21,030 bases of DNA, taken from contig CAXHJY010001382.1 of assembly GCA_964016885.1 (NCBI GenBank), positions 1 to 21,030 of the forward strand. Direction: 5' to 3'. The translations under genes were made by a program, and so were the position numbers. The stretch's first letter is position 1, and each line of letters opens with the position of its first letter. The notes beneath the pieces are model-generated. The model was not told where the DNA came from and did no database searches. It saw only the letters and a list, made by a program, of their open reading frames with translations. Below are positions 522 to 21,030 of the stretch, in pieces. Source of the DNA: Eledone cirrhosa. Taxonomy: Eukaryota.

Positions 522-1548
522 ATGTATGTATGTAAGTATGTATATATGTCTGTATATATGTATGTAAGTATGTATATATCTATATGTATGTATATATGTA
601 TGTAGGTATGTACACATGTCTGTATATATGTATGTAAGTATGTATATATCTATATGTCTGTATATATGTATGTAAGTATGTACACATGTCTGTATATATG
701 TAAGTATGTATATATCTATATATCTGTATATATGTATGTAAGTATGTATATATCTATATATGTATGTAAGTATGTATATATCTATGTATGTATGTATGTA
801 TGTACACATGTCTGTATATATGTATGTAAGTATGTACATATGTCTGTATATATGTATGTAAGTGTGTATATATCTATGTATGTATGTAAGTATGTACATA
901 TGTATGTATATATGTATGTATGTAAGTATGTACATATGTATGTATATATGTATGTAAGTGTGTATATATATATGTATGTATGTAAGTATGTATATATGTC
1001 TGTATATATGCATGTAAGTGTGTATATATCTATGTATGTATGTAAGTATGTACATATGTCTGTATATATGTATGTAAGTGTGTATATATCTATGTATGTA
1101 TGTAAGTATGTACATATGTATGTATATATGTATGTATGTATGTAAGTATGTACATATGTCTGCATATATGTATGTAAGTGTGTATATATCTATGTATGTA
1201 TGTAAGTATGTACATATGTCTGTATATATGTATGTAAGTGTGTATATATCTATGTATGTATGTAAGTATGTACATATGTATGTATATATGTATGTATGTA
1301 TGTAAGTATGTACATATGTCTGCATATATGTATGTAAGTGTGTATATATCTATGTATGTATGTATGTAAGTATGTACACATGTCTGTATATATGTATGTG
1401 AGTATGTATATATCTCTATATATATCTATGTATGTATGTAAGTATGTATATATGTCTGTATATATGTATGTAAGTGTGTATATATCTATGTATGTATGTA
1501 TGTATGTAAGTATGTACATATGTCTGTATATATGCATGTATGTATGTA
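522..1548. repeat. TATG-derived minisatellite with 60-bp and ~160-bp higher-order periods
   Basis: Recurring TATGTATGTAAGTATGTACATATGTCTGTATATA and TGTATGTAAGTGTGTATATATC modules; 1141/1201/1261 start identically; 1021-1180 recurs at 1181-1340. Confidence 0.9.
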
Positions 1549-1696
1549 GTCTCATATTAATGTGTATCAAGAATTAATGAACTACAATACTTTCTCTATT
1601 TCCATGAACTGAGATAAATTTCTCCACAAACAACGATAGAAAATACTTATCTACACACACGTATGTATACATATATATATATATATATATATATAA

Positions 1697-1797
1697 CAAA
1701 AGAGTCAGGACCCCGCCGGCTGAGCTCCGGCAGTTTCGACAGCTAGATCCGAACTCTGGTGCGTTATGGTTCACCTGGTCCATTACCACTCTTTCTT

Positions 1798-1800
<3 letters not shown>
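1697..1800 (-). repeat. Short interspersed repeat, family X copy 1
   Basis: Reverse complement aligns with 5617-5753 (AACCATAACGC...ATCTAGCTGTCGAAAC..GGAGCTCAG..TCCTGAC). Flanked by (TA)n on both sides. Strand is arbitrary. Confidence 0.8.
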
Positions 1801-1853
<53 letters not shown>

Positions 1854-2055
1854 TTATACTTGGGGAAGGTCATATTTGTGTAATATTGCCAGCATTAATA
1901 ACAGAACATACTCACTGTTTGGTTGGTTTTCGCTTCCCGTTTCTGTGTCTTTTATATCGGTAATCTAACTTACTCGGTCCTCAATGTTGCCATTGAGTGA
2001 CCGACGGTCAAAAATAATACAGATACAATATAGACACAAACACATATATATAGTT

Positions 2056-2098
2056 TATCATAAAACTTTCGTTGCAATCTGCAACATCGTCAGTGGTG
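2056..2098 (-). ncRNA. Degenerate minimal type I hammerhead motif (PLE-like)
   Basis: Minus strand CTGACGA-T-GTTGCA-gat-TGCAAC-GAAA-GTTTTA: intact core and perfect 6-bp helix II; helices I and III weak. Confidence 0.6.
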
Positions 2099-2945
2099 TT
2101 ATCGTTTCCTCCTGTTGTATTATATGTCTACGCCATTTTTATTCAGTCTGTCTATATATTTATTTATTTATTTGCTTGTTTGTTTATTTTATTTTGTCTT
2201 CTTTGCGCATGCGTTTACGTGTGTGTATAGTGTTTTGTTTGCTGTGTGATGGGTGACTAGTGTATATATATATTTCTTGATTTTTTTAGTTGATTCTATT
2301 GACTGATGAATAGCTTATGTTAACTTTAACCATTCTGTCGAGAGCTTTATTCGATTTGTGATATTTTGCATTCTTGCAATATTATACACAACTGAATTCA
2401 TTCGCCTAAAATAAGTGTTGCCTCCCTTGCTGAACTCCACGTGGGGTCAGTAATAGTCACACTTTGGATTAGCAATTAAGCAAAATCCTGTTGATAAAGT
2501 GGCTTCCTTGTTCAATCATCTTACCAGAAGCCTGACATTTTTTTATGTAAGCGGACAGTACTTGATTTAGGAATCGCAGAAACCCAAATACTGGATTTTA
2601 CCAACCTTCCAGGGGTCCGGGTAAATTTTCAATCACATATAATTTTTATTGTTTGACCCGAATTACTTGGTCGTTTATTTGGCTGTGCGGATGTTTTGTT
2701 TAACCATCATCTCAGTGTGTTTGGCCTTTAACGTATGTTGTAGCTCTGATTCATCTGAATCATCGAGCGCTTGCCACACATCTCGGAAGTTGTTTTTCGT
2801 TAATTCCTGAGCCGAAATACGATTCTCGCTAATTTATATTTATATATATATTTATATATATGCAAAAGGTAAACAGGAATAATAAAACAGGCGACACAGC
2901 ATAGAAGAAATATATTAGTTTAACGCTTGAAATACCAGGAAGAGA

Positions 2946-2985
2946 GACATTTGCGTTTCGGACACTAGTCTTTCATCAGATGATA
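2946..2985 (-). ncRNA. Degenerate minimal hammerhead motif (PLE-like)
   Basis: Minus strand CTGATGA-aa-GAC-tagt-GTC-c-GAAAC-gcaaat-GTC; no helix I complementarity remains. Confidence 0.5.
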
Positions 2986-3284
2986 GGATTAGAAATAGAA
3001 TATAGATAGAAAGAAAAAAAGTGATAAGAGGAAGGAGTGGGGAAAAATGAGGGAGAAAAAGGGCGAGAAAAAGCACGGACATATTCAGTCAATCATTTTG
3101 GAGATTCGCTGGTCAATGGGTATCTTCCGCGTTAAAGAGGTTTAGGAAAACATATGAGGGGTGGACATGTGTGTGTGTGTGTGTGTGTGCTTGCAGGTGT
3201 GTGCATGTGTGCACGTGAAGGTGTGTTCGCATACATATATAAAATACATCTTTGTGTGTATAGTCATATAAAAGTATGTATGTT

Positions 3285-3330
<46 letters not shown>

Positions 3331-3342
3331 TAAACAAACCAC

Positions 3343-3519
3343 TATCCTGAGGGCTTCCAAAGTAACGGTCGCATTTTTAAAAGGGTACCTCAATGTCTAT
3401 TTATAAAACTGGTATATATTGTATTTTGTCTGATGAAGGCATACCATAATTTAACATGGTATCCTTGAAATATATATAATGAAATAAATATGGTTTTATA
3501 AATATAGTTTCCATTTGTT
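3343..3519 (+). mobile_element. ~175-bp HHR-bearing element, family H1 copy A (PLE pLTR/retrozyme-like)
   Basis: Aligns end to end with the reverse complement of 8348-8524 (TATCC...AGGGTA...TATTTATAAAAC...CTGATGA...TTTCCATTTGTT); (TA)n on both sides. Confidence 0.7.
3398..3504 (+). ncRNA. Type I hammerhead ribozyme
   Basis: CTGATGA 3430-3436; helix II ATACCAT/ATGGTAT plus AGG/CTT; GAAA 3467-3470; palindromic ATATATAT helix III; AUA site at 3478; helix I TATTTTGT/ATGAAATA, extended by TATTTATAAAACT/GGTTTTATAAATA. Confidence 0.8.
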
Positions 3520-3525
3520 AATATC

Positions 3526-3583
<58 letters not shown>

Positions 3584-3619
3584 TGTGTATATATACAGTA
3601 TATATATATATATATATAT

Positions 3620-3774
3620 GTTTATCTCGGGTTCAATCAGGGGTAACCACAGTAAGTAAGGTACTCAATACATAGCAGAGTATAAATATTTAATATAGAA
3701 ATGGCTTCTACAGGACTAGAACTGTTCTATTCGGGAGAAATCATTAGGAAGCCGACTGTCCTGTAGAATCCATT

Positions 3775-3783
<9 letters not shown>
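3620..3783 (-). mobile_element. HHR-bearing element, family H2 copy A (core mutated)
   Basis: Homologous to 13931-14081 in opposite orientation. Minus strand GGCTTC-CTAATGA-tttctcccgaat-AGAA-CAG-ttctagtc-CTG-TA-GAAGCC (3753-3703); 26-bp inverted repeat 3691-3716/3758-3783; (TA)n flanks. Confidence 0.75.
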
Positions 3784-3834
<51 letters not shown>

Positions 3835-3990
3835 TTGTTTGTGTGATTATGTGTATGTATTTGTGCGGGTTTGCGCGTATGAGTTTGTGCGTCTTTGCGC
3901 ATGTATTTGTGTATGTCAGCGTGTGTTTGTGAGCGCATACACGTAATCAAATGCCAATAGAAGCTGGTAACCATTAGAGAGTATCATTAT

Positions 3991-4178
3991 CGGTGGATTG
4001 GCAGTATCGGTAGAGGGTTGGACGCCATGCTTTCCAGCATAGTTACGTCCCTTTACGATCTGAGTTCAAATCCCGCCGAGGTAAACTTTGCCTTTCATCC
4101 TTACGGGGTCGATAAAATAAAGTACCAGTAATGCACTGGGATAATTGCTGGCCTTGTGCCTAAAGTAGAAACAATTAT
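3991..4178 (+). mobile_element. tRNA-derived SINE, short subtype
   Basis: A-box-like TGGCAGTATCGG, B-box GAGTTCAAATCC, core TTTGCCTTTCATCCTTACGGGGTCGATAAAATAAAGTACCAG shared by six copies in the window. Confidence 0.85.
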
Positions 4179-4195
4179 CATACCCACGTCAAAAT

Positions 4196-4410
4196 AATGA
4201 TTTCTAGTAGAGGCACAAGGCCAACAATTTTGGGGAGGGGAAAGTCGATTAAATCGACCCCAGTGCATTACTGGTGCTTTATTTTATCGACCCCGTAAGG
4301 ATGAAAGGCAAAGTTAACCTTGGCGAGATTTGAACTCAGACATGAAGAGCCATAACTCTATGCTTCAAAGCATGGTGTCTGACTCTCTAACGATACTGCC
4401 AATCCACGCC
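4196..4410 (-). mobile_element. tRNA-derived SINE, long subtype, with target-site duplication
   Basis: Reverse complement of the same family; direct repeat ATACCCACGTCAAAATAAT at 4180-4198 and 4415-4433. Confidence 0.9.
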
Positions 4411-4542
4411 CTAAATACCCACGTCAAAATAATAATTACAGAAACACACAGGTAAAGAGGGAGAGAGAGAGAGACACGAAATCCTGGAAGAAAGTTAGGT
4501 AGAGGAAAAGAGGGCGGGGCAAGAGAAAAAGACAAAAGAAAT

Positions 4543-4803
4543 TGAGTTAAAATAAAAATATAGGGACAGGTGGTAAAGGCTTGTGTCGGCATCTCCCAAT
4601 TCCTGCCAATGCTGTTGTGTGTTGTTGCACGTCTCAAAGAATCAGAAACAGTCCGTTAGTAATTTCCTGCTGCCGTATCAGAGGAAGTTTCGTTACAGCT
4701 GCATTCTTTGAAAGATGTTGACATTAGATAACTGAAAGAGATTATTTTTCTATTTGCATTTATTTAATAAATCATTGAATATGGTTTCACAAAATGGATT
4801 AAC
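4543..4803 (+). repeat. 261-bp inverted duplication, arm 1
   Basis: Reverse complement of 7214-7474; no mismatch found by eye. Confidence 0.92.
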
Positions 4804-4994
4804 TCGAAATGCAAGGAATACACTAGCTCCCATATTTATGCATTACACTTCATCACTATATATTACATATATATATAGTTTGTGAAGGTGAGTGGTCCAC
4901 GTTCGATTTGTGGTGTTTGCTATATGTTTGTAGACTGATTAGAACAATAACAATCTTGTTTAGGTATATTTATATATATATATATATATATATA

Positions 4995-5053
4995 GGAAAA
5001 AGTATGACCCCGACGGCAGAGCTCAAGCCGTTTCGACGGCTATTTCTGGACTG
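4995..5053 (-). repeat. Family X copy 2 (partial)
   Basis: GACCCCGACGGCAGAGCTCAAGCCGTTTCGACGGCTA aligns with GACCCCGCCGGCTGAGCTCCGGCAGTTTCGACAGCTA near 1709; (TA)n flanks. Confidence 0.7.
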
Positions 5054-5584
5054 TATATGTATATATATATATATATATATATACATATACATACAATAGG
5101 TAGAAAGGATAACACACTAGAGGAAGAGAGTGTGTGTTATCAATATACAGGGAAAACCACTAGTGTATGGAATCTATAAACTAATTTACAGGGACTAACG
5201 CGAGTCTATGACTCCATTAATTTATTTTGATATATATATATATATATAAGAAAGTAATGTCTTTTAGATTGTCCCACTCGTGTAAAATCATAAGAAAAGA
5301 AATTGAAAGTGTAACTGGAGTATTTTAAGAATATTTATTTACTTTATCAATTTTCACAATTCTTATAATTTTCAAAAATAAACACAAACCCCTCCATCTC
5401 TATTTTACTGCCAGCACCAACAATTTTGAAAGAGATGTGAACATGAAAGGACCTGTTATTTTTATCTAAAGTTAACGTTAAGACCCTCTTCCTGCTATAT
5501 CAAGCGTTAACCTAATACCTCTTCCATATACTGTACCGATTGTGTTGTTATTTCTGTTTACGTTTTACATACAGACACACACAC

Positions 5585-5616
<32 letters not shown>

Positions 5617-5618
<2 letters not shown>

Positions 5619-5753
5619 ACGAAGAGGGTGTGGTAAGATACCATGTCAACCATAACGCTCTAGAGTACTCGATACTTAGGGTATTAGAGTGGGTAATAGA
5701 ATCTAGCTGTCGAAACGGCTGGAGCTCAGACGCCGGAATCCTGACATTTTCCC
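5617..5753 (+). repeat. Family X copy 3, with ~30-nt insertion
   Basis: Aligns with the reverse complement of 1697-1800; (TA)n flanks. Confidence 0.8.
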
Positions 5754-5780
5754 TATATATGTATATATATATCTATCTAT

Positions 5781-6050
5781 CTAAGGCGGGTAAAATTCCC
5801 GAGATCCATGGACGAGTCCTCTCCAGCGGTCTCTGTCCCTCATTATCGCTGCCATGTCCTGCGTCTCCAACAGACCAGTGTCTGTCCTTAGGGCATCAAC
5901 ATACGTTAACCTTGGTCTTCCCCTTCTAGTGTGTCCATGTAGGGGCTCCCAAAGGAGCACTGAGTGCAATGTCAACTCTGGATGTCGGTGAGCATGTCCA
6001 GTTAACCTCAGTCTCCTCTGTGTCACTTTTGAGCTGACTTTTGAAATCAT
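5781..6050 (-). mobile_element. 5'-truncated RTE-clade LINE, 3' end of ORF
   Basis: Translation RRLRLTGHAHRH...LLWEPLHG...RGRPRLTYVDALRTDT...MRDRDRWRGLV matches the typical RTE-clade C-terminal motifs (RL..GH, RGRP, DR..WR); the stop runs straight into a (TAGA)n/(TA)n tail. Confidence 0.85.
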
Positions 6051-6741
6051 TATATATATATAATGATTCAGCATCCCTGTCTGCTGCCCCGTTCTATGAA
6101 AGGTGTGGCGTTCTTGTAACATTGTGACTCTGCTACACTGATTCATTTACTAGCTTACGTAAACTGGAGTTTAAATCATTCGGTTAACACAAACAATGCA
6201 ATATTCCTTAATGATGTCGAGGACATGTTCAACGCCAGTTTTGGAACATGTCAGCTTCGACATATTGTTCTAGTCTTGGAACAAAAAATAACTCTTCCCT
6301 ATGAGCAATCGATCTGCTAAAACTAGAAACCAACTGTCCATCAATTTACATCCTACTGTATTGAATACTCAACTATATTTGATAATGTAGTCCTCCATTT
6401 AGTCGTTTTATGATCAACAGCTGGGTGAATGTCCTGGCGTGCCAATCTCTAAGTTGGACGTAGGTCTACCTGGGCACGTAATCCGTTGTCTTAGTTCCGA
6501 GGTCAGGATAAATGGATAACTCAAAGTACGAGACCAAATCGGTGATTTTGTGGAAATATTTAAACTTCGGGGGAAATACAAAAAGAAACATGAAGAGAAA
6601 GAGACTGTGCAACAAATAATATTTTGCCGTCTGTGGACATGTTGGTCTAAAGTCCCACGAAATAGCCACACATCGCTGATAAAGTTCCTTAATTCTGCTA
6701 GCACGTTACATTTGATTACAAGGGTCTTGTGACAGAATAAA

Positions 6742-6775
<34 letters not shown>

Positions 6776-6776
6776 A

Positions 6777-6924
6777 CCGTATTTTCCGTCTTCGAGGACG
6801 CACCTTAATTTTGACAAACAAAAATTTGAAAAAAAATAATAAACAACTTTCGGCCTCTAGTACGCATGGTAGATTTTTGAGACTTATTTTAGGAAAAAGA
6901 GTAGCGTCTTCGACGCCGGGAAAT

Positions 6925-6928
<4 letters not shown>
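6777..6928. mobile_element. MITE of the Tc1/mariner superfamily (Tc2/pogo-like CCGTA termini)
   Basis: 25-bp TIRs CCGTATTTTCCGTCTTCGAGGACGC (6777-6801) and GCGTCTTCGACGCCGGGAAATAAGG (6904-6928), 20/25 match; TA on the right flank, set in (TA)n. Confidence 0.75.
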
Positions 6929-6967
<39 letters not shown>

Positions 6968-6977
6968 AGAGATATAG

Positions 6978-7014
<37 letters not shown>

Positions 7015-7117
7015 ATATATGTATAAAGATTTAGATTAATATACGAATATACGTTGATTTCGATCTCGTTGCTTACAACATGCTGAATGGAAATGCTGAA
7101 TGGAAAGTGGTTCTACG

Positions 7118-7168
<51 letters not shown>

Positions 7169-7213
7169 GAGATATAAAGAGATAGAGAGAGAGGGGGGCG
7201 TGTGGGCGCATTT

Positions 7214-7474
7214 GTTAATCCATTTTGTGAAACCATATTCAATGATTTATTAAATAAATGCAAATAGAAAAATAATCTCTTTCAGTTATCTAATGTCAAC
7301 ATCTTTCAAAGAATGCAGCTGTAACGAAACTTCCTCTGATACGGCAGCAGGAAATTACTAACGGACTGTTTCTGATTCTTTGAGACGTGCAACAACACAC
7401 AACAGCATTGGCAGGAATTGGGAGATGCCGACACAAGCCTTTACCACCTGTCCCTATATTTTTATTTTAACTCA
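7214..7474 (-). repeat. 261-bp inverted duplication, arm 2
   Basis: Reverse complement of 4543-4803. Confidence 0.92.
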
Positions 7475-7511
7475 CTTTGTTGTTCTCCCCACCACTCTCT
7501 CTCTCTCTCTC

Positions 7512-7568
<57 letters not shown>

Positions 7569-7856
7569 TCTGTATATATATGCAGAGGTTATATTTAATT
7601 TAAACATTTTTATAACTGATATAATATATATATTGGCTTCTTGCTCACATTAATTTCTCTATTTTCATTTATATATATATATATATATATATAATAACTT
7701 GTAATAATTCTTTACACACATCTCACTGTGTAACACATTTCTCTTTGTGTAATATATTTGCATTCGAGCTCAGAAGGAAATTCTCTATTCTTCTTTGAGC
7801 TAATACTATTATTATTATTACAGTGAACTGCGGAATACTCTTAATTCCGATCTTTG

Positions 7857-7888
<32 letters not shown>

Positions 7889-7912
7889 GAGAACAAAAGG
7901 TGGTTAAAAGAG

Positions 7913-8000
7913 TTCCATGTATTTTATTATGCGCATTTCAAAAACAAATATCATCATGCAATAATATTTGTGTTTTCATCAGATAAAACAGGAAGACATG
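7913..8000 (-). ncRNA. Type I hammerhead ribozyme (left palindrome arm)
   Basis: Exact mirror of 8103-8190; TCATCAG at 7976-7982; predicted cleavage after 7928. Confidence 0.85.
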
Positions 8001-8102
8001 ATATGAAGGTTAAAAAACACTTGTGGATAGTGCAGTTTTAAATCAACATATTTATGTTGATTTAAAACTGCACTATCCACAAGTGTTTTTTAACCTTCAT
8101 AT

Positions 8103-8190
8103 CATGTCTTCCTGTTTTATCTGATGAAAACACAAATATTATTGCATGATGATATTTGTTTTTGAAATGCGCATAATAAAATACATGGAA
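8103..8190 (+). ncRNA. Type I hammerhead ribozyme (right palindrome arm)
   Basis: TGTTTTAT-CTGATGA(8121-8127)-16-position helix II with one mismatch (8128-8163)-GAAA-TGCGCA-TA-ATAAAATA; helix III is the palindrome ATGCGCAT; AUA site at 8175. Confidence 0.85.
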
Positions 8191-8306
8191 CTCTTTTAAC
8201 CATCTTTTGTTCTTATATATTATGTATACTCCAGTCCTACAAATTGTAGAGTGCTTCTTATCCGATATCTGCATTGCTTTATTGTACTACAATAAAACTC
8301 ACCTCC

Positions 8307-8347
<41 letters not shown>

Positions 8348-8351
<4 letters not shown>

Positions 8352-8519
8352 AAATGGAAAGTATATTTATAAAGCCATATTTATTTTATTATCATATTTC
8401 AAGTGCCACCAAGGCAAATTATGGTGCGCTTTCATCAGATAAAATACAATACAGATTTGTTTTATAAATAAATAGTGACATACCCTGAAAAAAGACAACC
8501 TTAACGGTTGGAGCTTCCT

Positions 8520-8524
<5 letters not shown>
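8348..8524 (-). mobile_element. HHR-bearing element, family H1 copy B
   Basis: Diverged homologue of 3343-3519, bounded by (TA)n. Confidence 0.7.
8364..8470 (-). ncRNA. Type I hammerhead ribozyme
   Basis: Minus strand TATTTTAT-CTGATGA-AAGCGCACCA..TGGTGGCACTT-GAAA-TATGA-TA-ATAAAATA; 8-bp Watson-Crick helix I plus distal TATTTATAAA/TTTATAAATA; predicted site 8390. Confidence 0.8.
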
Positions 8525-8556
<32 letters not shown>

Positions 8557-8576
8557 TTCACAAAAAGCTGCAATTC

Positions 8577-8581
<5 letters not shown>

Positions 8582-8668
<87 letters not shown>
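8582..8668. repeat. Compound (CT)n-(AT)n microsatellite
   Basis: Pure CT run followed by AT run. Confidence 0.95.
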
Positions 8669-8901
8669 CACTTTCTTCCTCTCTTTCATTATCTTTCTCT
8701 CCCCAACTTCCTACCTTTGTGTGCGTGTCTGTGTGTACGTGTGTCTGTGTGTATGTGTGTGATATTATGCATTTTTCCTTATTTTGACATGGGTATATTA
8801 CTCTCTAATAATTACATACCTCTCTCTCTATACACACACATACACACATTTATATATATATATATAAGTTAAAACAAAGAATGCAGCTGTATCGATATAT
8901 T

Positions 8902-9098
<197 letters not shown>

Positions 9099-9886
9099 AA
9101 ACAACAGAAAACAAAAACAATAACTAAGAGTGCAGTACAAAGTATTAGTATTAGGTTCATACATATGTATAGGTATGTGCCGGTGTGCATATGTATGTTT
9201 ATATGTATGTGTGTGTTTATGTGTGAGTGTATGCCTATGTGTGTGTGTGTATATGTGTGTGTTTATGTGAGAGCGTAGGTATATGTGTGTGTGTGTGTGT
9301 GTATATGTGTGTGTTTATGTGTGAGCGTATGTATGTGTGTGTGTAAGCCAATGAATTAAATATGCTGAAATTTGTAATTGGAATGTCTTTATTGTTTTAT
9401 TTCTATCACATTTGCAAATGGTGGAGCATGGTTTAATTTTTAATTACTTGTGGAGTATTTCCTGGGAATAATTCTTCGTTTTGACGTATTATAATGTTCT
9501 TTGTGATGTCCGTCAGTTTAGATCTCTCTCTCTCTCTTGACCTCTTCCTTCTCTCTCTCCCTCTCGTTCGTGCTCCTCCTCCTCTCTCTCTTGAGCCCTC
9601 CCTTCTCTCTCTCCTCCTCGTTCATTCTCCTCCTCTATCTCTCCCCGACTCCTCACTTTTCTGCACAAACGTACGTACCCATATTTGTATTTATAGGTGC
9701 GAAAATAACAATGAAATGTATTCACAGTTGTTTACTCTTTCCCAGCGAAGCTTGTAAATTAAATATAATATAGTTATAGATTTGACCAAAAAACCTCGTT
9801 TGAATGCTTGCAACAATATAAGCTCCAGTAAATGCATTTCAAAACCTGGTGATTGGGTTTAGTTTGGGACATTTCAAAGTTGTGAA

Positions 9887-10040
9887 GGCGCATGTCTTAG
9901 TGGTTGGAGCATTGGGCTTGCAATCGAAAGGTTGTGAGTTCAATTCTCGGACCGGGTCATGTGTTGTTTCCTTGAGCAAGACACTTTATTTCACGTTGCT
10001 CCAGTTTACTCAGCTGTAGAAATGAGATGATAGCACTGGG
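9887..10040 (+). mobile_element. Second tRNA-derived SINE family (CORE-SINE-like)
   Basis: A-box-like TGTCTTAGTGG 9893-9903, B-box GAGTTCAATTC 9936-9946, then CCTTGAGCAAGACACTTTATTTCAC...CTCAGCTGTAGAAATGAG resembling the CORE domain. Confidence 0.75.
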
Positions 10041-10318
10041 GTCCCTATCATCAAATTACCTAAGACACCTCCAACGAGATATAACTTGGGTGAAGCCAGC
10101 TGAACCTGCATAGGTGTGAGCTGTCACACACATTTAAAAGTGTCTCCCACTCCAAAAATAGGTTTAGTCAGTCTGACAGATTTCCACATCGTTTATATCA
10201 ACTCAGTTTGACTCAAAAGGAGTTATCGAGTTAAGAACAGCCTGATTGAAAAGCGAACTTATTAAGCAAAAATTTTACTTACTGCCCTGTGTTTTTATTA
10301 TAAGATATCAACTAAGAA

Positions 10319-10533
10319 CGGTGGATTGGCAGTATCGGGAGAGGGTCGGACGCCATGCTTTGCAGCATAGAGTTACGACCCTTTATGATCTGAGTTCAAA
10401 TCTCACCGAGGTTAACTTTGCCTTTCATCCTTATGAGGTCGATAAAATAAAGGACCAATCATGCACTGGGGTCGATTTAATCGACTTTCCCCATCTCCAG
10501 ATTTTCCGACCTTGTGCCTATTTAAGAAAATAA
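10319..10533 (+). mobile_element. tRNA-derived SINE, long subtype, with target-site duplication
   Basis: Same family as 4196-4410; TATAAG(A/G)TATCAACTA at 10299-10314 and 10534-10549. Confidence 0.88.
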
Positions 10534-10767
10534 TATAAGGTATCAACTAGATTTTATATAATTATATAATACCCTTCATATCGCCTGTTTCCACTCAGGT
10601 TTCCGAACCGTAAACAACTGATATGCATTACTTTATTCTATTTTATTTATACCTTAGAACGACTTGAATGTTTGATTTTATAACAACTCTGTATTTATAG
10701 CGAAAATATATACTGTATATGTCTCTTTGGTCTGATCTAACGATCAACTTCTTTCCTTTCCGTGTGT

Positions 10768-11408
10768 ATTATATATATGTATATAGGGGCGGTGAATTGG
10801 CAGTATCGGTAGAGGGTCGGACGCCATACTTTCTAGCATAGTTACGTCCTTTTACGGTCTGAGTTAAAATCTCGTCGAGATTAACTTTGCCTTTCATCCT
10901 TACGGGGTCGATAAAATAAAGTACCAGCAATGTACTGGGTATTTGCTGGCCTTGTGCCAATAGTAGAAACAATTATATATATGTATATATAAGGGCGGCG
11001 AATTGGCAGTATCGGTAGAGGGTTGGACGCCATACTTTCTAGCATAGTTACGTCCTTTTACTCTCTGAGTTAAAATCTCGTCGAGATTAACTTTGCCTTT
11101 CATCCTTACGGGGTCGATAAAATAAAGTACCAGTAATGTACTGGGTAATTGCTGGCCTTGTGCCAATAGTAGAAACAATTATATATATGTATATATAAGG
11201 GCGGCGAATTGGCAGTATCGGTAGAGGGTTGGACGCCATACTTTCTAGCATAGTTACGTCCTTTTACGGTCTGAGTTAAAATCTCGTCGAGATTAACTTT
11301 GCCTTTCATCCTTACGGGGTCGATAAAATAAAGTACCATAATAATGTACTGGGTAATTGCTGGCCTTGTGCCAAAAGTAGAAACAATTATACATATATGT
11401 ATATATAT
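10768..11408 (+). mobile_element. Three head-to-tail SINE copies (short subtype), 206-bp period
   Basis: Units start at ~10787, 10993 and 11199; near-identical, joined by ATTATATATATGTATATA linkers. Confidence 0.92.
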
Positions 11409-11629
11409 ATACAACGACAACGACGTTTATGGTGACAATGGAGACTAAGTCAGCCATCTTGCCTGAGAAACGCTGTGGCTAATTTCGCATAACATAATAT
11501 TGATGTGTTTTTCTTGTTTCTGTTGTTGTTGTCTTTTGTTTCTCCCAACCTGTCAAGTCTTAACATTCATTAAATATAGCTCTAGAAAACGAAATACTTA
11601 ATGCAATGCTGGACTTTTGTTTTATTACA

Positions 11630-13430
11630 ATGGTTGTTATTGATGCTGTTGTCGTCGTAGTGGTGGTCGTCGTTGTTGTTGTCGTTGTTGCTATTGTTAT
11701 TGTTGTAGTTGTTGCTGTTGTTGTGGTTGTTGTTATTGTTTCTATTATTGTTGACGTTGCTGTTGTAGTCTTTGTTGTTGTTGTTGTTGTTGTTGCGGTT
11801 GTCGTTGTTGTTGTTGTTAATGTTGTTATTGCTGCTACTGGTGATGATTTTGTTGTTGTTGTTGCTGTTGTCGTTGTTGTTGTAGTTGTTGCTATTGTTG
11901 TAGTTGTTGCTGTTGTTGTGGTTGTTGTTATTGTTTCTATTATTGTTGACGTTGCTGTTGTAGTCTTTGTTGTTGTTGTTGTTGTTGCTGTTGTCGTTGT
12001 TGTTGTTAATGTTGTTATTGCTGCTACTGGTGATGATTTTGTTGTTGTTGCTGTTGTCGTTGTTGTTGTAGTTGTTGCTATTGTTGTAGTTGTTGCTGTT
12101 GTTGTGGTTGTTGTTATTGTTTCTATTATTGTTGACGTTGCTGTTGTAGTCTTTGTTGTTGTTGTTGTTGTTGTTGTTGCTGTTGTCGTTGTTGTTGTTA
12201 ATGTTGTTATTGCTGCTACTGGTGATGATTTTGTTGTTGTTGTTGCTGTTGTTGTTGTAGTTGTGGCTATTGTTGTAGTTGTTGCTGTTGTTGTGGTTGT
12301 TGTTATTGTTTCTATTATTGTTGACGTTGCTGTTGTAGTCTTTGTTGTTGTTGTTGTTGCTGTTGTCGTTGTTGTTGTTAATGTTGTTATTGTTGCTACT
12401 GGTGATGATTTTGTTGTTGTTGTTGCTGTTGTCGTTGTTGTTGTAGTTGTTGCTATTGTTGTAGTTGTTGCTGTTGTTGTGGTTGTTGTTATTGTTTCTA
12501 TTATTGTTGACGTTGCTGTTGTAGTCTTTGTTGTTGTTGTTGTTGTTGTTGTCGTTGTTGTTGTTAATGTTGTTATTGCTGCTACTGGTGATGATTTTGT
12601 TGTTGTTGCTGTTGTCGTTGTTGTTGTAGTTGTGGCTATTGTTGTAGTTGTTGCTGTTGTTGTGGTTGTTGTTATTGTTTCTATTATTGTTGACGTTGCT
12701 GTTGTAGTCTTTGTTGTTGTTGTTGCTGTTGTCGTTGTTGTTGTTAATGTTGTTATTGCTGCTACTGGTGATGATTTTGTTGTTGTTGCTGTTGTCGTTG
12801 TTGTTGTAGTTGTTGCTATTGTTGTAGTTGTTGCTGTTGTTGTGGTTGTTGTTATTGTTTCTATTATTGTTGACGTTGCTGTTGTTGCTGTTGTTGTCTT
12901 TGTTGTTGTTAATGTTGTTATTGCTGCTACTGGTGATGCTTTTGTTGTTGTTGACGTTTTTGCTTTTGTTGTCCTTGTTGTTGTTATTGATGTTGTTGTT
13001 GCTATTGTTGTTGTTGTTGCTGCTGCTGTTGTTGCTGCTAGCGATGCTTTTGTTGTTGTCGTCGTTGTTGCTGCTGCTGCTGTTGTTACTGCTGTTGCTG
13101 TTGTTGCTGTTGCTGTTGTTGTTGTTGTGGTTTCTGTTGTTGTTGTTGCTTTTGTTGTTGCTGTGGTTGCTGTTGCTGTTGTTGTGGTTGTAGCTGTTGT
13201 TGTGGTTGTGGTTTCTGTTGCCGTTGTTGCTGTTGCTTTTGTTGTTGTTGCTGTTGTTGCTGTTGTTGTTGCTGTTGTTGTGGTTGTAGCTGTTGTATGT
13301 TGCTGTTGCTGCTGCTGTTGCTGTTTCTGCTAATAATGCCACTGTTGCTGTTGTTGTTGTTGCTGCCGTTGCTGCTGCTGCTGTTGTTGTTGTTGTTGTT
13401 GCTGCTGGTAATGTTTCTGTTGTTGTTGTC
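11630..13430. repeat. (GTT)n-derived higher-order satellite
   Basis: Marker ACTGGTGATG at 11837, 12026, 12218, 12398, 12584, 12764 and 12929 (spacing 165-192 bp), decaying into cryptic GTT/GCT. Confidence 0.92.
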
Positions 13431-13892: not shown

Positions 13893-13930
13893 GTGTGTGT
13901 GTGTATGTGTGTGTGTATGTATATATATAT

Positions 13931-14081
13931 TTAATGTAGAAAGGCTTCTACAGGACTGATGATTTCTCCTGAATGAAACAGTTCTAGTCTTGTAGAAGCC
14001 TTTTTACATCAAATATTTATACTCTGCTCTGTATTGAACACCTTACTTACTGTGGTTATCCCCGATTGTACCCGAGATAAA
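13931..14081 (+). mobile_element. HHR-bearing element, family H2 copy B
   Basis: CTGATGA 13956-13962, GAAA 13975-13978, helix III ACAG/TTGT, GUA site 13994, then GAAGCC; about 11 nt holding the 5' strand of helix I are missing relative to copy A; inverted repeat 13934-13957/13986-14009; (TA)n flanks. Confidence 0.78.
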
Positions 14082-15283: not shown

Positions 15284-15819
15284 ATCCCAATTTGTGCAAA
15301 TTCATTTTGTCTTTGGAAGTATAGTGTGTTTATATACGTTTATGATGTGTGATAGCGTGTGTTGTATATATGTCTGTACGTTTTTATGATTGTGTTTAAG
15401 TCTCTGAATATGTGCAATGTGTGCGTAATCTTTATTTTTTTCTGAAATGCTGTCGTAAATTGAAAATTAATGCGACAACTTGACTACGTTTCGTACATCA
15501 ATAACATAGCTCTGCCTCAAGCGCTAAACTTATTAGATTTGTCACGAACTGTCATCTATAATTATCATAAAAATTGACTTGCGCTCAGAGTGAGTGTTTA
15601 CCAGAGTGACTAATAATATTTCTCAGTTAACATTTCGCATCAACGCAACAATGTAAAAACGCTTCAGCGTGGCAGAGGTAGATAAAGCCAATATTTAGAA
15701 TAGATATATTCATATATATATATATACACACACACATATATATGCATATAAACATATGTAAACATACACATATACATATACACACAAATACATACACACA
15801 TATATATATATGTGTATAT

Positions 15820-15900
15820 ATATATATACAATATATATACAATATATATACATACTATATATATATACATACTATATATATATACAATATATATATATAT

Positions 15901-15936
<36 letters not shown>

Positions 15937-16298
15937 ATATATATATATACAATATATATATATATATATATATATACAATATATATATATATATATATAC
16001 AATATATATATATATATATATATACAATATATATATATATATATATACAATATATATATATATATATACAATATATATATATATATATATACAATATATA
16101 TATATATATATACAATATATATATATATATATATATATACAATATATATATATATATATATACAATATATATATATATATATATATACAATATATATATA
16201 TATATATATACAATATATATATATATATATATACAATATATATATATATATATACAATATATATATATATATATACAATATATATATATATATATACA

Positions 16299-16329
<31 letters not shown>

Positions 16330-16335
16330 ATATAT

Positions 16336-16371
<36 letters not shown>

Positions 16372-16662
16372 ATATATATATATATATATATACAATATAT
16401 ATATATATATATACAATATATATATATATATATATACAATATATATATATATATACACAATATATATATATATATACACAATATATATATATATATATAC
16501 AATATATATATATATATATACAATATATATATATATATACACAATATATATATATATATATACAATATATATATATATATATACAATATATATATATATA
16601 TACAATATATATATATATATACAATATATATATATATATATACAATATATATATATATATAT

Positions 16663-16698
<36 letters not shown>

Positions 16699-17041
16699 AT
16701 ATATATATATATATACAATATATATATATATATATACAATATATATATATATATATATATATACAATATATATATATATATATACAATATATATATATAT
16801 ATACAATATATATATATATATACAATATATATATATATATATACAATATATATATATATATATACAATATATATATATATATATACAATATATATATATA
16901 TATATACAATATATATATATATATATATACAATATATATATATATATATACAATATATATATATATATACAATATATATATACAATATATATATATATAT
17001 ACAATATATATATATATATACAATATATATATATATACAAT

Positions 17042-17072
<31 letters not shown>

Positions 17073-17311
17073 CAATATATATATATATATATACAATATA
17101 TATATATATATATACAATATATATATATATACAATATATATATATATATACAATATATATATATATATACAATATATATATATATATACAATATATATAT
17201 ATATACAATATATATATATACAATATATATATATATACAATATATATATATATACAATATATATATATATACAATATATATATATATACAATATATATAT
17301 ATATATATACA

Positions 17312-17342
<31 letters not shown>

Positions 17343-17588
17343 ATATATATATATATATATACAATATATATATATACATACAATATATATATATACAATA
17401 TATATATATATATATACAATATATATATATATATATACAATATATATATATATATACAATATATATATATATATACAATATATATATATATACAATATAT
17501 ATATATATATATATACAATATATATATATACACAATATATATATATATATATATACAATATATATATATACCCAATATATATATATAC

Positions 17589-17640
<52 letters not shown>

Positions 17641-17676
17641 ATATATATATATACACAATATATATATATATACACA

Positions 17677-17707
<31 letters not shown>

Positions 17708-18287
17708 ATATATATATATATATATACACAATATATATATATATATACACAATATATATATATATATATACAACATATATATATATATACAACATATATA
17801 TATATATATATACAACATATATATATATATATACAACATATATATATATATAGAATATATATATATATACAATATATATATATATATATATATACAATAT
17901 ATATATATATATATATACAATATATATATATATACAATATATATATATATATACAATATATATATATATATACAATATATATATATATACAATATATATA
18001 TATATACAATATATATATATATATATACAATATATATATACAATATATATATATATATATATACACAATATATATATATATACAATATATATATACAATA
18101 TATATATACACAATATATATATATATACAAATAATATATATATATACAATATATATATATATACAATATATATATACAAACAATATATATATATACAATA
18201 TATATATATATACAATATATATATATACAAACAATATATATATATATACAATATATATATATATACAAATAATATATATATATACAA

Positions 18288-18320
<33 letters not shown>
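15820..18320. repeat. [(TA)n-CAA]m compound satellite
   Basis: About 2.5 kb of TA runs punctuated by CAA and variants. Confidence 0.95.
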
Positions 18321-18321
<1 letters not shown>

Positions 18322-18389
18322 CGAATGAAACAATTATAGTCTGTAGAAATCTGAATAAAATGAAGATACACACACAGACACACAAACAC

Positions 18390-20149
<1,760 letters not shown>

Positions 20150-20809: not shown

Positions 20810-21030
20810 GGGGGGGGGGGGTAAAATTCCAGAGATCCATGGACGAGTTCTCTCCAGCGGTCTCTGTCCCTCATTATCGCTGCCATGTCCTGCGTCTCCA
20901 ACAGACCAGTATCTGTCCTTAGGGCATCAACATACGTTAACCTTGGTCTTCCTCTTCCATTGTGTCCATGTAGGGGCTCCCACAGGAGCACTGAGTGCAA
21001 TGTCAACTCTGGATGTCGGTAAGCATGTCC
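20810..21030 (-). mobile_element. RTE-clade LINE 3' end, second copy (runs off window)
   Basis: About 8 substitutions in ~210 bp relative to 5789-5999; ends in a C run followed by (TA)n. Confidence 0.88.

What the first reader, a model, noticed from the sequence alone, without database searches (positions are those of the whole stretch)
7880..8223. 344-bp palindrome with an intact hammerhead in each arm, pointing outward
Seen: 171-bp arms, a TT spacer and two mismatches. Each arm holds a complete HHR with 8-bp helix I, a long helix II and the self-complementary helix III ATGCGCAT, the form known to favour dimeric HHR cleavage. Inference: read-through from either side makes the antisense arm first, locking the ribozyme in a ~170-bp dsRNA (potential ADAR or Dicer substrate); only transcripts starting near the centre would cleave. 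The structure fits a recent fold-back or inverted-pLTR insertion.
Basis: partly seen in the sequence, partly recalled or inferred. Interest (0 to 1): 0.8.

Follow-up and report, generated by a model that had tools for sequence, protein, structure and literature searches.

The report
Head-to-head Penelope retroelement hammerhead palindrome
This mirror-image stretch is one copy of a very abundant short repeat carrying a hammerhead self-cutting-RNA motif, likely made when a Penelope-type jumping-gene enzyme copied the same RNA onto both sides of a DNA break; back-to-back copies of this kind are already known, but the junctions here offer a test of how they form.

Summary
In detail: 171-bp arms (169 of 171 complementary), a TT centre, and a complete type I hammerhead in each arm pointing outward. 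It is not unique. Public runs show a very high-copy family with recurring head-to-head junctions, in runs of two other organism labels too. The insertion is probably 7880-8309: the left arm stops at the family's short end, the right arm carries an 86-bp tail, and both ends abut (TA)n. Inverted pLTR, one-sided tail, (TA)n target and hammerhead are published Penelope-like-element (PLE) features. Read-through does lock the ribozyme in computed folds, and one run shows editing-like A>G/T>C changes, but hyper-editing and siRNA from Penelope repeats are already reported. The two ribozymes lie on opposite strands and cannot dimerise in cis, so they are probably passengers. The new part is the junction anatomy: arms stop at a fixed site (8052), centres form a 4/2/0-nt ATAT overlap series, and 8 of 10 countable joints add a C. 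That fits two cDNAs run off a capped RNA, and makes an open question testable. No RT partner was found, this exact locus was not bridged, and cleavage is untested.

The parts
7857..7882 (.). (TA)n tract at the left outer end, the likely target site
   Evidence: sequence
7880..8051 (-). Left arm: inverted copy from the fixed start (+1 at 8051) to the family's short end, with no tail; two private changes at 7889 and 7900
7920..7990 (-). Type I hammerhead of the left arm (core 7982-7928)
8049..8054 (.). Head-to-head junction with a TT centre; the family also shows -4, -2, TA and +A centres
8052..8223 (+). Right arm: direct copy starting at the fixed site (family letter A at 8052, inferred transcription start)
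   Evidence: depth step at 8050-8061; joints; loose ends
8113..8183 (+). Type I hammerhead of the right arm: helix I 8113-8120/8176-8183, core 8121-8127 and 8164-8167, helix II 8128-8163, palindromic helix III 8167-8174, predicted cut after 8175
8224..8309 (+). One-sided tail of about 86 bp between the short end (8223-8228) and the long end (about 8309), with two small hairpins and an AC-rich end
   Evidence: (family depth to 8300; the tool skipped 8300-8330)
8311..8348 (.). (TA)n tract at the right outer end
8349..8521 (-). Neighbouring insertion of a second hammerhead family (core 8438-8390); not part of the palindrome

Best explanation
The palindrome plus its one-sided tail (7880 to about 8309) is one copy of a high-copy, non-coding, hammerhead-bearing repeat sitting in a (TA)n tract, likely a Penelope-like-element insertion made when both strands of the cut target were primed and two cDNAs were copied from the same kind of RNA and joined head to head. 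Shown: the geometry, the family, the two different outer ends, the fixed inner end and the junction series. Inferred steps: (1) a capped transcript starts at A8052, a TC-A initiator-like site inside a longer pLTR; (2) a PLE RT/GIY-YIG protein starts reverse transcription inside that RNA, downstream of the hammerhead, at one of two sites (about 8223-8228 or about 8309); (3) each cDNA runs to the RNA 5' end and sometimes copies the cap as an extra C; (4) the self-complementary ATAT ends, or other microhomology, join the two cDNAs. Once inserted, read-through RNA is predicted to fold into a 171-bp hairpin that disables both ribozymes and is likely edited by ADAR. The ribozymes are passengers here, selected in the source RNA. 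Confidence in the PLE identity alone is about 0.88; the number given is for the whole mechanism.
For: Family: 4514 contigs laid in X1, 400 in X4, 33 in X5, 26 in X6; 4955 and 5587 raw DNA reads in X21 and X22, from another study. Short end followed by (TA)n: loose TA behind 8228 in 53 X1 contigs, 52 X2 contigs, 269 X21 reads and 220 X22 reads; the left arm ends in this form and the right arm runs on. Fixed inner end: 15 of 15 joints shown (45 hidden) and 15 of 15 (34 hidden) have one side at 8041-8053 and the other anywhere from 8107 to 8280. Six joints recur in X1 and X2 (same sample) at similar depth (43-98), and one is shared by X1 and X4. Centres: -4 (19 contigs in X1, 1 in X5), -2 (6 in X1, 1 in X6), TA (25 in X1, 1 each in X4 and X6) equal 4-, 2- and 0-nt overlaps of ATAT. 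An upstream continuation exists in a minority of copies (loose ends before 8053 in X21/X22 and behind 8051 in X1/X2 match at 16 and 17 of 21 letters, compared by eye) and would put G next, yet 8 of 10 countable joints from 8051 add C (p 2e-5 to 4e-4). Structure is kept: 6 of 6 DNA variants in paired positions keep a pair and none falls in the core (rows, p 0.03); 9 of 10 among the rows shown, the tenth matching a partner change at 8128/8163. Literature: inverted copy, one-sided tail and (TA)n bias (PMC8557442); head-to-head is the commonest form (PMC3846280); Poseidon protein cuts and extends both strands and starts internally at two sites that define the tail (PMC11167929); the Penelope transcript starts inside the pLTR (PMC2377424); cap copying in L1 (PMC2912911, one passage).
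Against: No PLE RT or endonuclease ORF was tied to this family: no genome is held, no frame in or next to the element looks like one (read by eye), and the arm motifs are absent from the Craig 2021 supplement (line breaks could hide a hit). The tail (about 86 bp) is longer than the published 30-40 bp, and the long end could not be read in the runs (8300-8330 skipped). The arms agree at all 12 family-variable sites (chance at most 0.21, 0.003 if unlinked), which a single-template fold-back explains equally well. The C count rests on 24 of 39 rows of two truncated tables after I dropped 2 joints explained by family variants; CA, CAT and CAA fillers could be re-copied terminal letters rather than the cap. 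T, not A, is the majority letter at 8052 in X1 (about 40,000 of 54,794 summed depth), which the overlap series does not explain. No capped RNA start was observed.
Confidence: 0.55

Rival explanations
1. Same PLE family, but the palindrome comes from one template by self-priming or fold-back, as Arkhipova et al. 2013 proposed (self-priming on an antisense template); the second arm is a copy of the first.
For: The arms agree at all 12 family-variable sites. The model is published for head-to-head palindromic junctions (PMC3846280). The AT-rich short end could be a preferred resolution site.
Against: Perfect centres with 4- and 2-nt overlaps leave no loop. The left arm ends exactly at the family's standard short end. 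Many joints have one full arm and one truncated arm with filler letters.
Confidence: 0.2
2. This locus is a second-generation copy: a read-through hairpin RNA from an older palindromic master was reverse-transcribed from the tail through both arms.
For: T is the majority letter at 8052 in X1, so this centre may be shared by many loci. Both arm mismatches are A>G on the plus strand, as editing of such an RNA would leave. Earlier notes report edit fossils in this genome (not tested here).
Against: There are only 2 changes in 171 bp, one with a disfavoured 5' G, and none in the right arm. The left end is the standard short end in (TA)n rather than a random truncation.
Confidence: 0.12
3. The palindrome at this locus is a fold-back chimera or an assembly artefact.
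For: No contig or read bridges this locus from unique flank to unique flank; I laid only 7990-8330, and the best holders X1-X3 may be the source sample.
Against: Head-to-head centres occur in X1, X2, X4, X5 and X6. Raw reads of X21 and X22 cover the left-arm part at depth about 23 and 19. The arms differ at two sites and end at two family-typical ends.
Confidence: 0.04
4. A sub-unit-length insertion of a tandem, circular-RNA retrozyme.
For: Type I hammerhead with a palindromic helix III and low GC, as in animal retrozymes (PMC7229834). Two-armed retrozyme arrays are noted elsewhere in this genome.
Against: There is no tandem unit here, no tail-to-start joint among the rows shown, and a fixed inner end is not expected from a circular template.
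Confidence: 0.03
5. A palindromic DNA transposon (MITE or foldback) inserted at TA.
For: Near-perfect palindrome in TA context; palindromic Harbinger repeats exist in frog (PMC5625713).
Against: The outer ends are asymmetric, the arms are variably truncated at the centre, and single-arm copies dominate (X21 depth about 53 left of the centre vs 665 right of it).
Confidence: 0.03
6. A host-selected switch in which the transcription start decides between cleavage and dsRNA.
For: The folding logic holds in silico.
Against: The arms are 99% alike (young), the form recurs across the family, no neighbouring gene was identified, and monomer cleavage is predicted to be weak.
Confidence: 0.03

Closest known systems
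Inverted pLTR structures of EN+ Penelope-like elements (Craig et al. 2021, PMC8557442, passages and supplement search; Arkhipova et al. 2013, PMC3846280, passages)
   Same: Inverted copy adjacent at the 5' end, head-to-head junction, tail on one end only, (TA)n target, hammerhead in the pLTR.
   Different: No ORF between the repeats: the whole insertion is two pLTR-sized arms. The tail is about 86 bp rather than 30-40. The inner end is fixed rather than randomly truncated in at least one arm of every joint shown.
PLE hammerheads (Cervera and de la Pena 2014, PMC4209133, parts 1-2 of 4 read)
   Same: Type I core, long helix II, small palindromic helix III, predicted dimer. The paper already reports pairs 100-700 bp apart on opposite strands and low activity in vitro.
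   Different: Helix I is 8 bp and helix II 15 bp, longer than its minimal motifs; A10.1-U11.1 in this copy, with G-C as a family variant.
Poseidon_Ac of Anolis (Frangieh et al. 2024, PMC11167929, passages and second part of main text)
   Same: Two internal RT start sites downstream of the hammerhead define the tail; AT-rich target; AC-rich end; both strands extended in vitro.
   Different: Autonomous element with an ORF starting in helix II. In the parts I read, the paper does not derive head-to-head palindromes or run-off to the RNA 5' end.
dsRNA from Penelope repeats: siRNAs from inverted copies in Drosophila (PMC3681739, passages); hyper-edited Penelope in lizard and palindromic Harbinger in frog (PMC5625713, passages)
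   Same: An inverted repeat yields dsRNA that is edited or diced.
   Different: The evidence here is family-level, from one run whose kind is not on record; no small-RNA data.
Animal non-LTR retrozymes (PMC7229834, passages; bioRxiv 10.64898/2026.07.22.740005, part 1 of 5)
   Same: Non-coding, type I hammerhead, PLE-related.
   Different: No tandem monomers or evidence of circles; the ends are not defined by the cleavage site.

Membership tests
Type I hammerhead ribozyme | Core CUGANGA, GAAA and NUH with helices I-III in order | tested here: met
   1 of 20,000 shuffles
Type I hammerhead ribozyme | Variation keeps the helices and spares the core | tested here: met
   6 of 6 (rows) and 9 of 10 (shown rows) keep pairing; p about 0.03. 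Phasing of 8128/8163 was not seen, and one RAD group changes loop III (8169).
Type I hammerhead ribozyme | Match to an Rfam hammerhead model | tested here: not met
   none among the hits listed
Type I hammerhead ribozyme | Self-cleavage | not testable with these tools
   folding only: monomer helix III about 0, dimer favoured
Penelope-like element (EN+) | ORF with PLE-clade RT and GIY-YIG endonuclease | tested here: inconclusive
   none in or next to the element (read by eye); no genome held; a minority upstream continuation is seen but could not be followed
Penelope-like element (EN+) | Inverted copy adjacent at the 5' end (head-to-head) | tested here: met
   joints
Penelope-like element (EN+) | Optional tail at one end | tested here: met
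   short end 8223-8228 vs long end about 8309; about 86 bp, longer than the published 30-40 bp; the exact long end was not read in runs
Penelope-like element (EN+) | Hammerhead just upstream of the 3' end, and (TA)n target | tested here: met
   cut site about 50 nt from the short end; TA tracts at both ends
Non-LTR retrozyme | Two or more head-to-tail units, each with a hammerhead | tested here: not met
   no such joint among the rows shown (79 joint rows hidden)
Non-LTR retrozyme | Circular monomer RNA | not testable with these tools
   no raw RNA run listed
MITE / foldback DNA transposon | Symmetric fixed termini; moves as a whole unit | tested here: not met
   asymmetric ends, variable inner truncation, single arms dominate

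The most novel reading that the evidence does not exclude
These palindromes are paired 'strong-stop' products of a Penelope-type enzyme. Both strands of a TA break prime internally on a capped pLTR transcript, each cDNA runs off the cap (leaving an extra C), and the self-complementary ATAT ends anneal so that each cDNA templates the other's second strand. This would explain the long-unexplained head-to-head PLE structure without antisense self-priming, and would make the family a standing source of perfect hairpins whose ribozymes are silenced and edited by ADAR.
Probability: 0.33. Interest if true: 0.65.

Novelty: new member of a known kind. Interest (0 to 1): 0.4.

Why it matters
As a locus it is ordinary: one of many copies of a known PLE arrangement. 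Its use is as a natural data set. The papers read call the origin of PLE inverted repeats undefined or propose self-priming on an antisense RNA. A short family with many junctions, a fixed inner end and two outer ends lets the two-cDNA and fold-back models be told apart by counting in one assembly. It is also a plausible source of the long perfect dsRNA that is unusually abundant in octopus.

Tried and rejected
Rfam: no hammerhead family among the listed hits, only sub-threshold miRNA-type matches to the hairpin and microsatellites. Own genome: none held, so no copy count, no empty site and no partner search. Metagenome scan for the hammerhead pattern: 0 matches. No RNA holder listed; this is no evidence on expression. 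Earlier findings near this place or like this sequence: none. Five A>G/T>C sites (8125, 8128, 8132, 8135, 8163), four of them enriched in X4 over WGS, are present in RAD DNA reads and were dropped as editing candidates. The whole-table A>G+T>C share of X4 is not significantly above DNA runs (26 of 52 vs 11 of 33, p 0.18; vs 28 of 77, p 0.15; 17 of 28 vs 7 of 19, p 0.14). The descriptor matched lazily and missed two hammerheads; it was replaced by full enumeration. The evaluation of a hand-drawn dimer failed (crossing pairs), so only the computed MFE dimer is used. The repeat finder on the whole window was swamped by microsatellites. Arm motifs were not found in the Craig 2021 supplement. Eight paper searches that ran before the last and one search listed no paper on this family or on cap-run-off palindromes in PLEs. 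I saw only titles and abstract starts for most hits, the library lacks most subscription papers, and Repbase/Dfam were not available. Supplements of the other papers were not opened, and those of the bioRxiv preprint are closed.

Full report
Observation. The palindrome is as described: arms 7880-8050 and 8053-8223, 169 of 171 positions complementary, TT centre, mismatches 7889G/8214T and 7900G/8203T. Each arm holds a type I hammerhead pointing outward, with an 8-bp helix I, a 15-bp helix II, an intact core and a self-complementary helix III. A full-enumeration descriptor hit 1 of 20,000 shuffles of 8052-8309, and 4 real sites in 1500-11500 against a mean of 0.003. Rfam lists no hammerhead family. 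The window is AT-rich, microsatellite-dense animal DNA. Its SINE resembles octopus SINEs (recalled, not tested), and earlier notes call the genome octopus-type.

It is a family, not a singleton. No genome is held, so I used public runs. On 7990-8305, 4514 contigs of X1, 400 of X4, 33 of X5 and 26 of X6 were laid. On 7990-8330, 4405 contigs of X2 and 4955 and 5587 raw DNA reads of X21 and X22 were laid. Summed depth in X1 is 0.6-2.3 million over most of the arm, against about 45-100 for single junctions. The tool warns that this is no copy number; I read it only as 'very many'. Depth continues past the palindrome to at least 8300.

Ends. Loose (TA)n follows 8228 in 53 X1 contigs, 52 X2 contigs, 269 X21 reads and 220 X22 reads: a standard short end about 50 nt past the predicted cut. 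The left arm ends in this form in the TA tract 7857-7882. The right arm runs about 86 bp further to the TA tract 8311-8348; the tool skipped 8300-8330, so the long end is read from the window alone. At the centre, raw-read depth steps from about 53 to 489 in X21. All 15 joints shown (45 hidden) and all 15 (34 hidden) have one side at 8041-8053 and the other between 8107 and 8280. Six recur in X1 and X2 (same sample) and one in X1 and X4. Centre forms lacking 4 or 2 letters, or with TA, occur in X1 (19, 6 and 25 contigs) and singly in X4, X5 or X6. They equal 4-, 2- and 0-nt overlaps of a self-complementary ATAT end. T is still the majority letter at 8052, which I cannot explain.

The inner end. 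Loose ends before 8053 (271 and 376 reads in X21 and X22) and behind 8051 (15 and 17 contigs in X1 and X2) are the same upstream sequence (16 and 17 of 21 letters, by eye). So 8052 is a preferred stop inside a longer element, at an A in a TC-A context. That continuation would put G after 8051. Of 12 distinct joints from 8051 with filler letters (from 24 of 39 rows shown), I dropped 2 explained by family variants. Of the other 10, 8 begin with C, 1 with G and 1 with A (p 2e-5 at 17% C, 4e-4 at 25%). A copied cap would give C, as for full-length L1 (PMC2912911, one passage). Re-copying of the terminal letters is an alternative, and the joints may not be independent.

Selection on the ribozyme. 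In one search, 6 of 6 DNA variants at paired positions keep a pair and none hits the core. In the shown rows (40 of 97), 9 of 10 do, and the exception at 8163 has a partner change at 8128; 56% of transitions would keep a pair, p about 0.03. This speaks for selection in source RNAs, not at this locus. Some A>G variants could also be old edits.

What the RNA would do. The full hairpin is -271 kcal/mol. Helices I and II have probability 0.0 for starts at 7960 or further left. Helix I reaches 0.5-0.7 for starts from 7995 with ends up to 8210, and falls to 0.02 or less once the RNA reaches 8230; monomer helix III is about 0 throughout. Two copies fold into a double hammerhead at -39.3 against -27.2 kcal/mol. 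The two ribozymes of the palindrome are on opposite strands, so that dimer needs two RNAs. Published PLE hammerheads cut poorly alone (PMC4209133), and the Poseidon one needs protein and is dispensable for insertion in vitro (PMC11167929).

Editing. X4 (kind not on record; 88 million letters, so likely RNA by inference; a different sample of the same study and species label) has 5 sites at 5% or more that are under 0.1% in X1. All 5 are A>G or T>C (8092, 8139, 8174, 8177, 8183), none with a 5' G (32 of 35 rows tabulated, and the 3 left out are not private to X4). Site 8174 is 519 of 3704 in X4 (21 contigs) against 3 of 2708 and 3 of 3171 reads in X21 and X22; site 8177 is 640 of 3293 against 8 of 2711 and 0 of 3172. 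A loose end in 4 X4 contigs differs from 8154-8183 by 7 T>C and one common A>G, the pattern of a hyper-edited antisense strand. Three of the four private changes inside the ribozyme break a pair or the core, unlike the DNA variants. Against: five other sites proved to be DNA variants, the overall spectrum is not significantly enriched (p 0.14-0.18), three of the five sites are hidden in the RAD table, and nothing ties the signal to this locus.

Comparison. An adjacent inverted copy, a one-sided tail and (TA)n bias are standard PLE features (PMC8557442), and octopus PLE families with (TA)n preference are listed in its supplement. Head-to-head palindromic junctions are the commonest form and were attributed to self-priming, left open (PMC3846280). 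Opposite-strand hammerhead pairs 100-700 bp apart were reported in 2014. siRNAs from inverted Penelope copies (PMC3681739) and hyper-edited Penelope (PMC5625713) are known. The Poseidon protein extends both strands from two internal start sites that define the tail, and Penelope transcripts start inside the pLTR from an internal promoter (PMC2377424). The element works like a PLE pLTR insertion; membership lacks the RT/endonuclease link. It fails the retrozyme tandem test and the MITE test.

Verdict. A real, young, ordinary member of a known kind. I put PLE origin at about 0.88 and the two-cDNA run-off mechanism at 0.55, against fold-back (0.2), a re-copied master (0.12) and artefact (0.04). 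The full cap-plus-annealing version I put at 0.33. Earlier notes in this genome reached a similar two-arm model for tandem families; they are leads, not support. In the searches named under Tried and rejected I found no paper on run-off to a fixed start with an extra C in PLE palindromes. Interest 0.4.

Noticed in passing
window 3329-3530 (+) and 8349-8521 (-): Two copies of a second hammerhead family (cores 3430 and 8438, about 80% alike), each ending about 45 nt past the cut site in (TA)n; the second sits tail to tail with the palindrome's tail.
   Followed up: partly
window 13922-14021 (+) and 3681-3793: A hammerhead core (13956-13983) inside a long near-perfect hairpin, with a degenerate relative at about 3690-3780 (88% alike over 128 bp); a third family.
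   Followed up: partly
window 4559-4803 and 7214-7458: A 245-bp inverted pair, 100% identical, 2.4 kb apart; possibly the outer arms of a young composite insertion.
   Followed up: no
window 1704-1748, 4995-5050, 5701-5745; 2864-2979 and 5486-5566: Short repeats with GAAAC motifs ending at TA runs, and a degenerate hammerhead at 2979 (-); they may be the rearranged Naiad-type motifs of earlier notes.
   Followed up: no
window 10768-11407; 3991-4412; 10313-10520: A SINE-like repeat in a 206-bp tandem of 3.1 copies at 96%, and as an inverted pair at 3991-4182/4211-4418.
   Followed up: no
window 5785-5999 and 20816-21030: Two 96%-identical fragments whose translation resembles the C-terminus of a LINE/RTE reverse transcriptase (recalled).
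   Followed up: no
   Followed up: partly
window 11633-13429 and 15700-20149: A 186-bp higher-order (GTT)n array and a 4.4-kb TA-rich array.
   Followed up: no
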